A stretch of DNA of 16,415 bases from a virus. Its lineage: Duplodnaviria; Heunggongvirae; Uroviricota; Caudoviricetes. The first letter of the stretch is position 1. Every line of letters starts with the position of its first letter. The position numbers and the translations under genes are program-made. The notes under the pieces are model-generated. The model searched no databases and was not told where the DNA came from. It worked only from the letters and a program-made list of their open reading frames with translations. Positions 7,647 to 7,989 of this stretch are shown here, in pieces. The stretch lies in IMG/VR virus record IMGVR_UViG_2690316243_000005; one strand, 5' to 3'.

Positions 7647-7651
7647 AAAGA

Positions 7652-7692
7652 ATAAAAAAATCCCGCAGTGATCGCGGACAGGAACTGCGGGA
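7652..7692 (-). terminator. Rho-independent terminator on the minus strand
   Basis: Stem 7661-7669 (tcccgcagt) pairs with 7684-7692 (actgcggga); 14-nt loop; + strand A7 run at 7654-7660 gives U7 on the minus transcript. Confidence 0.5.
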
Positions 7693-7750
7693 GAGTTACG
7701 AAGATTAAGTGTAAGGAATTATTCTTATATCACGACAAAAAAATTAACGC
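7653..7750 (-). ncRNA. Candidate small RNA (~100 nt) in the I-J insert, bounded by its own promoter and intrinsic terminator
   Basis: Minus strand reads TTCACA - 16 nt - TATAAT, then ~98 nt, then a 9-bp hairpin and U7 tract. No RBS-led ORF fits between promoter and terminator. Ends are approximate. Confidence 0.35.
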
Positions 7751-7756
7751 AGAGAA

Positions 7757-7784
7757 ATTATACGCGCCACAGTCAGTTTGTGAA
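7757..7784 (-). promoter_or_regulatory. Sigma70-type promoter on the minus strand (-35 TTCACA, 16-nt spacer, -10 TATAAT)
   Basis: On the + strand: attata at 7757-7762 (= TATAAT) and tgtgaa at 7779-7784 (= TTCACA); A/T-rich stretch just upstream (7785-7810). Confidence 0.4.
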
Positions 7785-7856
7785 AATGTGAAGATATTCA
7801 GAATTTTTATGCCATTACCGGTTTTAACCAACAGGATTATCGGTGGGCATGAAAGA

Positions 7857-7892
7857 AAACCCCGGTATCTGCTGATACCGGGGTTTCTCTTT
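7857..7892. terminator. Strong hairpin with U-rich flanks on both sides, possible bidirectional terminator
   Basis: 13-bp perfect stem aaaccccggtatc / gataccggggttt with 4-nt loop tgct; followed by tttctcttt on + and ttttctttc on -. Confidence 0.4.
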
Positions 7893-7989
7893 AGCATGGC
7901 AGAAATGTGTTTCATGCTTTTCGGGCGAAGGATATCCGACTTCTGTACGGAATGGCAAGTGGCGGTTAATTTATTCAGGGGAAGGCTGT

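What the first reader, a model, noticed from the sequence alone, without database searches (positions are those of the whole stretch)
7647..7989. AT-rich insert between I and J with a promoter-to-terminator unit on the opposite strand: candidate prophage small RNA
In lambda as I recall it, I and J are ~60 bp apart; here they are 343 bp apart and the gap is visibly AT-rich against GC-rich flanks. On the minus strand there is TTCACA - 16 nt - TATAAT (+ coordinates 7784-7757), then ~98 nt, then a 9-bp hairpin with a U7 tract (7692-7652). A 13-bp hairpin at 7857-7886 sits upstream. The only ORFs here (7730..8014 minus, 7668..8009 plus) run through the hairpins and into J and lack RBS logic. It is antisense to the late operon, so it could be expressed from a repressed prophage. 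Function is unknown; I could not match it to any known sRNA from memory.
Basis: partly seen in the sequence, partly recalled or inferred. Interest (0 to 1): 0.7.

Follow-up and report, generated by a model that had tools for sequence, protein, structure and literature searches.

The report
Divergent pasB prophage small-RNA gene
The AT-rich stretch between tail genes I and J is a real small-RNA gene on the opposite strand, but it belongs to a known family: it is a divergent allele of pasB, an Hfq-dependent prophage sRNA found in enteropathogenic E. coli in 2021.

Summary
The I-J gap is 343 bp, against 60 bp in lambda, and is AT-rich. On the minus strand it has a near-consensus sigma-70 promoter (TTCACA-16-TATAAT, 7784-7757), a 9-bp hairpin with a U7 tail (7692-7654), and a separate 13-bp hairpin (7857-7886).

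The promoter-to-terminator unit is pasB. In EPEC E2348/69, the published 83-nt PasB lies at the same place: just after the I stop codon, antisense, before J. It was confirmed by northern blot, is strongly Hfq-dependent, and has 37 RIL-seq partners.

A covariance model built only from other pasB alleles hits the window at 7750->7654 (-), full length, at 62.4 bits and E 3e-10. The window allele is about 73% identical to PasB in the RNA body. It occurs in 844 of 5426 complete E. coli genomes, including CFT073 and ST131. The search settings of the 2026 PasB survey would miss it.

Across alleles, these parts are fixed: the promoter, the 5' GCGUUA plus U-run, an A-R-N tract, a UUAAUCUUC core, the terminator stem and the U-tail. 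No ORF is conserved.

The 13-bp hairpin matches in position a plus-strand hairpin that lambda also has between I and J.

Verdict: real, correctly interpreted, a new member of a known family. Interest is low to moderate.

The parts
6966..7646 (+). Tail assembly gene I, the left flank. PGAP-style start is 7065; the longest ORF starts at 6966.
   Evidence: Pfam Lambda_tail_I, E 6e-17. CFT073 annotation of the identical junction.
7654..7750 (-). Predicted primary pasB transcript, 97 nt, window ('W') allele. The part homologous to the annotated 83-nt PasB is about 7736->7654.
   Evidence: Covariance model R1, built from non-W alleles only, matches 7750->7654 full length at 62.4 bits, E 3e-10. Alignment to E2348/69 PasB.
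7654..7692 (-). Intrinsic terminator: 9-bp stem (7692-7684 / 7669-7661), 14-nt loop, U7 tail (7660-7654).
   Evidence: The stem CCCGCAG/CUGCGGG and the U-tail are invariant in 17 representative alleles while the loop varies widely.
7700..7708 (-). UUAAUCUUC, the conserved single-stranded core and candidate seed. AUCUU is invariant in all alleles.
   Evidence: Alignment A2. Unpaired in the centroid fold. Zhu et al. 2026 place the PasB seed just upstream of the terminator.
7712..7726 (-). A-R-N tract AAGAAUAAU (7726-7718) followed by UUCCUUA (7718-7712), which is CU-rich and resembles an anti-Shine-Dalgarno sequence.
   Evidence: An in-phase (ARN)3-7 run sits at the same place in every allele despite different sequence. 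The (U/C)UCCUU block is in most but not all alleles.
7737..7750 (-). Conserved 5' leader GCGUUA plus U-run. It lies upstream of the published 5' end of PasB.
   Evidence: Invariant or nearly invariant columns in A2. The annotated 5' end lies 21 nt after the -10 hexamer.
7757..7784 (-). Sigma-70 promoter: -35 TTCACA (7784-7779), 16-nt spacer, -10 TATAAT (7762-7757).
   Evidence: The same promoter is in E2348/69. Conserved across 49 variants as TATAAT, AATAAT or GATAAT. A match this good occurs in 0.65% of shuffles.
7782..7803 (.). Block GAAAATGTGAAGATATTCAGAA, overlapping and upstream of the -35, shared by all allele types. Role unknown.
7857..7886 (+). 13-bp perfect hairpin with T-rich tails on both strands. 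It corresponds in position to the plus-strand I-J hairpin or terminator of lambda and E2348/69, and is not part of pasB.
   Evidence: Lambda I-J hairpin. E2348/69 plus-strand terminator. Compensatory C-G to T-A change among short-type variants.
7990..11441 (+). Gene J, the right flank, broken by frameshifts into 7990..8193, 8263..9906 and 9900..11441.

Best explanation
The gap holds a moron-like insertion that carries pasB, a small-RNA gene of lambdoid prophages, in a divergent allele that I call W.

Shown in the sequence:
- A near-consensus sigma-70 promoter points leftwards, against the late operon.
- From it, a transcript of about 97 nt is predicted.
- That transcript ends at an intrinsic terminator whose U-tract finishes 7 nt from the I stop codon.

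Shown for the EPEC homologue, inferred here:
- The RNA is made in the lysogen while the tail genes are silent.
- It binds Hfq and needs Hfq for stability.
- It forms Hfq-mediated pairs with dozens of core and accessory transcripts.

Inferred from the anatomy:
- Hfq is held through the 3' U7 tail and the internal A-R-N tract.
[quoted passage not shown] Its core, UUAAUCUUC, is the only part of the RNA body that is fixed across alleles. The CU-rich UUCCUUA is a possible second contact for ribosome-binding sites.
- So pasB most likely acts in trans as a post-transcriptional regulator of host and island mRNAs. The variable body gives different alleles partly different target sets.

The 13-bp hairpin is a separate element. 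It is this prophage's version of a plus-strand hairpin or terminator that lies between I and J even in lambda.
For: Same position and orientation as published PasB:
- PasB lies at NC_011601.1 1466343->1466261 (-). I ends at 1466255 and J starts at 1466496.
- The first 20 nt of the northern probe are identical to the window.

Homology:
- blastn of window 7640-7800 against phage records gives canonical-type loci at 78-80% identity, E 4e-28 to 6e-32.
- A covariance model made without any W-type sequence hits 7750->7654 (-), full length, at 62.4 bits and E 3e-10. The next hit in the window has E 0.46.
- Promoter hexamers and spacing are identical in E2348/69.

Conservation and structure:
- In 38 distinct RNA variants, the fixed parts are the 5' GCGUUA, the U-run, AUCUU, the terminator stem and the U-tail. 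The loop and body vary.
- Only the terminator is a consensus structure; the rest is unpaired.
- An A-R-N tract is present in every allele.

Published experiments on the homologue:
- The northern blot size matches, and stability depends on Hfq.
- log2 fold change in delta-hfq is -6.8 and -2.4. BaseMean is 482 and 1082, against 5 and 15 for I and J.
- There are 37 RIL-seq interactions.

Other support:
- No conserved ORF.
- The W allele is present in 844 of 5426 complete E. coli genomes.
Against: - No expression data exist here for the W allele. Everything functional is carried over from an allele that is only 65 of 89 aligned columns identical in the RNA.
- No covarying base pairs were found: the terminator stem never varies, so structure support rests on differential conservation only.
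- The published 5' end (83 nt) does not match the start predicted from the promoter (97 nt).
- No target is validated for any PasB allele. The seed is a proposal from conservation.
- The RNA body is the most diverse 50-nt bin of the region (pi 0.20 against 0.06-0.10 in the flanks). That is also what weak constraint would give.
- A duplex search against the translation start regions in the window scored no better than shuffled controls.
Confidence: 0.85

Rival explanations
1. The RNA acts mainly in cis. It is fully complementary to the I-J intercistronic part of the late transcript. It could pair with that transcript to trigger cleavage, uncouple I and J expression, or keep leaky tail-gene transcripts down in lysogens. 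Conversely, the late transcript could sponge it on induction.
For: The RNA lies antisense within the late operon, between I and J, in every carrier. Its position at this junction is far more conserved than its sequence.
Against: It overlaps no coding sequence or ribosome-binding site: it ends 7 nt after the I stop and starts 240 nt before the J start. In EPEC it forms Hfq-dependent chimeras with 37 other RNAs encoded elsewhere, which is the behaviour of a trans-acting sRNA. No chimera with I or J transcripts appears in the tables that could be searched: E2348C_1436 and E2348C_1437 have 0 occurrences in Table S3.
Confidence: 0.15
2. The unit is a leftover moron promoter and terminator with no function of its own. 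It would be transcriptional noise carried along by recombining tail modules.
For: The RNA body is more variable than the flanking genes. There are no compensatory changes. The unit persists in a decaying prophage with a broken J.
Against: The promoter, 5' leader, AUCUU core, terminator stem and U-tail stay fixed across alleles whose bodies differ by more than 25%. The EPEC allele is abundant, Hfq-stabilised and among the top sRNAs by interaction number. The family is in about a third of complete E. coli genomes.
Confidence: 0.07
3. The interval encodes a small protein rather than an RNA regulator.
For: Mechanical ORFs cross the gap (7668..8009 +, 7730..8014 -). One phage record annotates a 33-aa hypothetical protein on the plus strand over this region.
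Against: The W-type RNA has no ORF of 8 codons or more. ORFs in other alleles start at GTG, run through the terminator without a stop, and are not shared. Indels between alleles are not multiples of three. The long gap ORFs are absent from E2348/69, WGPS6 and L126.
Confidence: 0.02
4. The right half of the insert holds a second minus-strand small RNA. It would start at a weak promoter (TTGCCA-18-TATCCT, 7958-7929) and end at the 13-bp hairpin followed by UUUUCUUUC, giving about 75 nt (7922->7848).
For: A promoter-like site with 9 of 12 matches. The hairpin has a U-rich tail on the minus strand too, and the 78-nt stretch folds with z -6.7.
Against: The promoter match is at chance level (3 found against 1.0 +/- 1.0 expected). 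The short-type right part (E2348/69) has a hairpin with a T-tract on the plus strand only, and lambda has the same plus-strand arrangement. The feature shared by all three is therefore plus-strand. Tree 2014 lists no Hfq-bound candidate at this site in Sakai Sp12.
Confidence: 0.08

Closest known systems
PasB, a 'pathogenicity associated small RNA' of EPEC O127:H6 E2348/69, prophage PP6 (Pearl Mizrahi et al. 2021, PMC8550237; survey by Zhu, Shabalina and Storz 2026, bioRxiv 10.64898/2026.05.13.724894)
   Same: Same locus: antisense, immediately after tail gene I and before J. Same promoter hexamers and spacing. Same 5' GCGUUA plus U-run, the same AUCUUC core, and the same terminator 3' arm and U7 tail (25 nt identical). 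A-R-N tract at the same place. A covariance model of the other alleles recovers the window copy at E 3e-10.
   Different: The RNA body is only 65 of 89 aligned columns identical, with 11 gap columns. The terminator loop is 5 nt longer. The sequence flanking the core differs (ACACUUAAUCUUCGUAACUCU against CACAUUGAUCUUCAUUUGUCUG). With the published search settings (blastn word size 28, query coverage above 75%), the 83-nt PasB query finds nothing in the window; with word size 11 it covers 30%. The survey describes PasB variants as differing by 'a few nucleotide differences'. Expression, Hfq dependence and partners are untested for this allele.
PasB-2, the O157:H7 and STEC allele (Sakai prophage Sp12)
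   Same: Same locus. The right-hand 200 nt of the insert, including the 13-bp hairpin, is the same as in the window. The whole 356-nt query is 91.5% identical.
   Different: Its RNA is the E2348/69 type with one change (C27A), not the W type. The two halves of the insert therefore assort independently, which indicates mosaic recombination.
AgvB and AsxR anti-sRNAs of EHEC prophages (Tree et al. 2014, PMC4104026; Rfam RF02702 and RF02703)
   Same: Hfq-binding small RNAs carried by lambdoid prophages, expressed from the lysogen and inserted moron-style.
   Different: They are 51-60 nt, share a conserved 3' region of about 42 nt, and sit in convergent pairs downstream of PR' next to the Q and stx region, not in the tail operon. 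No Rfam family matches the window at gathering score, and nothing meaningful appears at E up to 10.
Morons of lambdoid phages (Juhala et al. 2000, as cited in PMC4104026)
   Same: Extra DNA between two conserved phage genes, of different base composition, with its own promoter and terminator, expressed from the prophage.
   Different: Classical morons encode proteins and usually point the same way as the operon. This one encodes an RNA on the opposite strand.
OOP RNA of phage lambda (from general knowledge; not examined here)
   Same: A short phage RNA with its own promoter and intrinsic terminator, transcribed against a phage operon.
   Different: OOP overlaps the 3' end of cII and acts in cis through RNase III. 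PasB overlaps no gene and has many trans partners on Hfq.

Membership tests
PasB sRNA family | Gene lies in a lambdoid prophage between tail assembly gene I and tip attachment gene J, on the strand opposite to the late operon | tested here: met
   Flanks are Lambda_tail_I and GpJ domains. PasB coordinates compared with the I and J annotation in E2348/69. Same arrangement in CFT073, O157 and the phages WGPS6 and PhiR12_4.
PasB sRNA family | Sequence or profile homology to PasB of E2348/69 | tested here: met
   A covariance model built from 10 non-W alleles gives 62.4 bits, E 3e-10, full length, at 7750->7654 (-). blastn gives 78-80% identity over 161 nt, E about 1e-28 to 1e-32. Caveat: only 65 of 89 columns are identical within the 83-nt RNA, and it fails the published BLAST criteria.
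PasB sRNA family | Own sigma-70 promoter and rho-independent terminator with a poly-U tail | tested here: met
   TTCACA-16-TATAAT plus hairpin plus U7 in both the window and E2348/69.
PasB sRNA family | Stable transcript of about 83 nt detectable in the lysogen | not testable with these tools
   Northern blot and RNA-seq exist only for the E2348/69 allele. The promoter predicts 97 nt.
PasB sRNA family | Hfq binding and Hfq-dependent stability | not testable with these tools
   Sequence features compatible with Hfq binding are present: a U7 tail after the terminator and an (ARN)3 tract. Direct data exist only for E2348/69 (log2FC -6.8 and -2.4 in delta-hfq).
PasB sRNA family | Conserved single-stranded seed just upstream of the terminator, as proposed by Zhu et al. 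2026 | tested here: inconclusive
   The core AUCUU(C/U) is invariant and unpaired, but the flanking bases differ from PasB and no target is validated for any allele.
AgvB/AsxR anti-sRNA family | 51-60 nt RNA with the conserved 3' region of about 42 nt, located in convergent pairs at the PR' moron site | tested here: not met
   No Rfam hit to RF02702 or RF02703 at gathering score or at E up to 10. The location is the tail operon, not PR'.
Small-protein gene | An ORF with a start codon that is conserved in frame between homologues | tested here: not met
   No ORF of 8 codons or more in the W RNA, and no shared ORF between alleles or between gap types.

The most novel reading that the evidence does not exclude
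The W allele is a distinct regulator that has not been surveyed. It is carried by 844 of 5426 complete E. coli genomes, including CFT073 and O25b:H4-ST131 strains. It keeps the PasB promoter, Hfq-binding features and AUCUUC core but has a re-written body, so its target set would differ from EPEC PasB. The pasB locus would then be an allelic series in which tail-module recombination swaps regulatory specificities between pathotypes.
Probability: 0.35. Interest if true: 0.4.

Novelty: new member of a known kind. Interest (0 to 1): 0.25.

Why it matters
It shows that reading the sequence alone found a real prophage sRNA gene. The practical gain is modest. The allele in this window is common in extraintestinal E. 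coli lineages but is not annotated by PGAP. It also falls outside the criteria of the only published PasB survey. PasB counts in ExPEC may therefore be underestimates, and RIL-seq results from EPEC should not be transferred to these strains without testing. The family pattern is a variable body with a fixed promoter, A-R-N tract, short core and terminator. That pattern makes pasB a convenient natural series for asking how horizontally acquired sRNAs change targets.

Tried and rejected
- **Rfam.** Nothing at gathering score in the whole window. At E up to 10, only terminator-like chance hits far below threshold, such as STnc310, CopA and ncr1015.
- **AgvB and AsxR.** Rejected on both location and sequence.
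- **EHEC EcOnc list.** For Sakai Sp12 it holds only EcOnc10 and EcOnc51, at other coordinates. The O157 homologue was not reported there.
- **Genome-contig scan.** The pattern was too generic and returned unrelated terminators from many phyla, so the taxonomic breadth outside Escherichia is untested here.
- **Literature.** A search for 'tail assembly protein I' plus sRNA gave only false matches to the IcsA 'actin tail assembly protein'. Searches for UPEC sRNA reports found nothing at this locus.
- **Covariation.** None was found; the stem is invariant.
- **Local target search.** Pairing the RNA body against the 16 translation start regions in the window was no better than shuffled RNAs (60% of shuffles did as well).
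- **Plus-strand promoter.** None was found for a divergent plus-strand RNA ending at the 13-bp hairpin (and inspection).

Full report
**1. The observation**

The window is the tail region of a lambdoid prophage. It carries Z, U, V, G/T, H, M, L, K and I, then J, lom and a tail fibre gene.

- Gene I (Pfam Lambda_tail_I) stops at 7646 and J starts at 7990, a 343-bp gap.
- GC falls to 0.32-0.47 in the gap, against 0.55-0.66 on either side.
- The minus strand has TTCACA-16-TATAAT at 7784-7757, 11 of 12 consensus positions. Only 13 of 2000 dinucleotide-preserving shuffles of the gap contain a match this good.
- About 65 nt downstream is a 9-bp perfect stem (7692-7684 / 7669-7661) followed by U7 (7660-7654).
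- A 13-bp perfect hairpin lies at 7857-7886, with a folding z-score near -7.

**2. What it is**

The 356-nt interval occurs in 1662 of 5426 complete E. coli genomes. It is 100% identical in CFT073, S88, CE10, ATCC 25922 and ST131 strains, and about 91.5% identical in O157, O26, O111 and O145 strains. It is always between the genes annotated as tail assembly protein and gpJ, and no RNA is annotated there.

Rfam has no family for it. The literature does. Pearl Mizrahi et al. 2021 (PMC8550237) found five prophage sRNAs in EPEC E2348/69 by RIL-seq. Their Table S6 places PasB at NC_011601.1, minus strand, 1466343->1466261, 83 nt, in prophage PP6 between E2348C_1436 and E2348C_1437, with northern probe AATCCCGCAGTGATCGCGGAGCT.

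- In that genome, gene I ends at 1466255 and J starts at 1466496, so PasB sits exactly where the window's unit sits.
- The first 20 nt of the probe are identical to window 7659-7678.
- The promoter in E2348/69 is the same TTCACA-16-TATAAT.

**3. Is the window copy a member of the family?**

The RNA bodies differ. Aligned to the 83-nt PasB, the window RNA is identical in 65 of 89 columns, with 11 gap columns. The longest shared word is the 25-nt terminator arm plus U-tail.

I collected loci from IMG/VR with two conserved words and from GenBank phages. This gave 38 distinct RNA variants. They fall into several types:
- the window type (W), also in CFT073;
- the E2348/69 type and its C27A derivative in O157, which is the PasB-2 of Zhu et al.;
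- several further types, often mosaic.

To test membership without circularity, I built a covariance model from 10 alleles that excluded all W-like sequences and searched the whole window with filters off. The top hit is 7750->7654 on the minus strand, covering model positions 1-97 of 97, at 62.4 bits and E 3e-10. The next hit has E 0.46. blastn of window 7640-7800 against the phage collection also finds the canonical type at 78-80% identity with E 4e-28 to 6e-32. The window unit is a pasB allele.

**4. Anatomy shared by all alleles** (alignment A2)

- The promoter.
- A 5' GCGUUA followed by a U-run.
- An in-phase A-R-N tract: three repeats in W (AAGAAUAAU), five in PasB, up to seven elsewhere. 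It is always at nt 21-45 although the sequence differs.
- In most alleles, a CU-rich (U/C)UCCUU block.
- The core (A/G)AUCUU(C/U), with AUCUU invariant.
- The terminator stem CCCGCAG/CUGCGGG.
- The U-tail.

The terminator loop varies widely in both length and sequence, and the body between the motifs varies. RNAalifold finds only the terminator as consensus structure, with no compensatory pairs because the stem never changes. Single-sequence folds leave the core unpaired.

The body is in fact the most diverse part of the region: pi is 0.20 for 7700-7749, against 0.06-0.10 in I and J. There is no conserved reading frame.

**5. How it most likely works**

Shown for the EPEC allele:
- The RNA is detected by northern blot at the expected size and depends on Hfq for stability.
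- RNA-seq baseMean is 482 (activating condition) and 1082 (nonactivating condition), while the flanking I and J genes are at 5 and 15. It is therefore expressed from a prophage whose late genes are silent.
- It falls by log2 6.8 and 2.4 in a delta-hfq strain.

Inferred for the window allele:
- The near-consensus promoter drives a 97-nt primary transcript from G7750.
- The intrinsic terminator ends it at 7654, 7 nt from the I stop codon.
- The U7 tail and the A-R-N tract hold Hfq. A-R-N repeats are the Hfq motif reported by Tree et al. 2014 (abstract).
- The unpaired UUAAUCUUC region pairs with targets. This is where Zhu et al. 2026 also place the PasB seed.

One open detail concerns the 5' end. 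The published 5' end lies 21 nt after the -10 hexamer, right after the conserved U-run. Because GCGUUA plus the U-run is conserved and lies downstream of the promoter, I think the primary transcript is about 14 nt longer than annotated. The 83-nt form would then be either processed or an approximation from read coverage. This is untested.

**6. The rest of the insert**

The part to the right of the promoter comes in two unrelated forms.
- A 200-nt form, in the window and O157, has the 13-bp hairpin.
- A 99-nt form, in E2348/69, has a different hairpin: CAGGCACC...GGTGCCTG followed by TTGTTTTTG on the plus strand. The scan tool calls it a plus-strand terminator.
- Variants of the short form show a compensatory C-G to T-A change (CAGGCATCC...GGATGCCTG).
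- Lambda's own 60-bp I-J gap also has a plus-strand hairpin, AAACCGCC-TGCG-GGCGGTTT followed by TGTCATTT.

A plus-strand hairpin with a T-rich tail just upstream of J is therefore a general feature of this junction. The window's 13-bp hairpin is its local version, not part of pasB. Its role is not established; it could be an intercistronic terminator that Q-modified polymerase reads through, or an mRNA 3' stabiliser.

The two halves of the insert assort independently. O157 combines the E-type RNA with the window-type right half, which points to recombination.

**7. Comparison with what is known, and novelty**

The family is known (2021) and has been surveyed (2026).
- The survey used the 83-nt E2348/69 sequence with blastn word size 28 and query coverage above 75%. 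It describes PasB variants as differing by a few nucleotides.
- With those settings the window gives no hit; with word size 11 it gives 25 nt, or 30% coverage.
- The W allele is nevertheless common. It is in 844 of 5426 complete genomes, with 636 records at 99% identity or more, including an O25b:H4-ST131 strain. The canonical type is in 960 genomes.
- I could not see the survey's hit tables, so I cannot exclude that some W-type loci were counted.
- I found no paper describing this allele, and the EHEC Hfq-CRAC list has no entry at the homologous Sakai site.

I therefore rate it as a new member of a known kind.

**8. Verdict**

The element is an allele of a described sRNA family, so a specialist would not be surprised. 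The remaining interest is the unsurveyed, ExPEC-associated allele and the allelic-series pattern. Interest 0.25.

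Noticed in passing
window 7990-11441: Gene J is broken into three ORFs (7990..8193, 8263..9906, 9900..11441). The prophage cannot make an intact tail tip, yet the pasB promoter, RNA and terminator are 100% identical to those of hundreds of genomes. The flanking tail genes are only about 93% identical to CFT073.
   Followed up: partly
window 10620-12488 and 12301-14439: There is a tandem duplication of the 3' end of J (10620-11553 against 11555-12488, 92% identical). 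There are also two Ail/Lom genes (12444..13043 and 13880..14479; repeat 12301-13003 against 13737-14439, 96%). This looks like recombination between two tail modules.
   Followed up: partly
window 1-34 and 13419-13452; ORF 13520-13777: The first 34 nt of the window are a perfect inverted copy of 13419-13452. A tail-fibre N-terminal fragment (13065-13433) is cut off there and is followed by an 85-aa helix-turn-helix ORF. This is probably an insertion-sequence remnant. The best whole-window matches in E. coli genomes start at base 35.
   Followed up: partly
L127 (lambda NC_001416.1 15445-15504); L003 2931-2954; window 7857-7886: A plus-strand hairpin with a T-rich tail sits just upstream of J in lambda, in E2348/69 and in the window. 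The three sequences are unrelated, and the short-type variants show one compensatory change. This conserved intercistronic feature of the late operon has a role I could not establish.
   Followed up: partly
L003 2844-2866 (E2348/69); window 7737-7756: The published 5' end of PasB lies 21 nt after the -10 hexamer, directly after a conserved U-run. The conserved GCGUUA plus U-run upstream of it suggests a longer primary transcript (about 97 nt) that is processed, or an imprecise annotation.
   Followed up: partly
window 7700-7749 compared with flanks, across 106 related loci: The pasB body is the most diverse 50-nt bin of the region (pi 0.20 against 0.06-0.10 in I and J), while short motifs inside it are invariant. 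The alleles look like a mosaic series rather than a slowly drifting gene.
   Followed up: partly
L254 (IMGVR_UViG_2534681940_000025): In one viral contig the sequence diverges right after the -35 region of the pasB promoter into unrelated DNA with a reading frame that starts MTKNTRFSPEV, resembling the start of an IS transposase. This looks like an insertion that removed the sRNA gene.
   Followed up: no
L125 1558-1656 (Escherichia phage PhiR12_4, PV340553.1): This record annotates a 33-aa 'hypothetical protein' on the plus strand directly opposite pasB. Given the lack of any conserved ORF, it is probably a spurious gene call.
   Followed up: partly
window 7929-7958 and 7848-7922, minus strand: A weak promoter-like site (TTGCCA-18-TATCCT) lies upstream of the 13-bp hairpin, which also has a U-rich tail on the minus strand. 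This could be a second small transcript of about 75 nt, but the evidence is at chance level.
   Followed up: partly
window 7782-7803: The block GAAAATGTGAAGATATTCAGAA is identical in all allele types, overlapping and upstream of the -35. On the RNA strand it contains two TTCACA motifs 10 nt apart (7794-7789 and 7784-7779). It may be a regulator or UP-like site.
   Followed up: no
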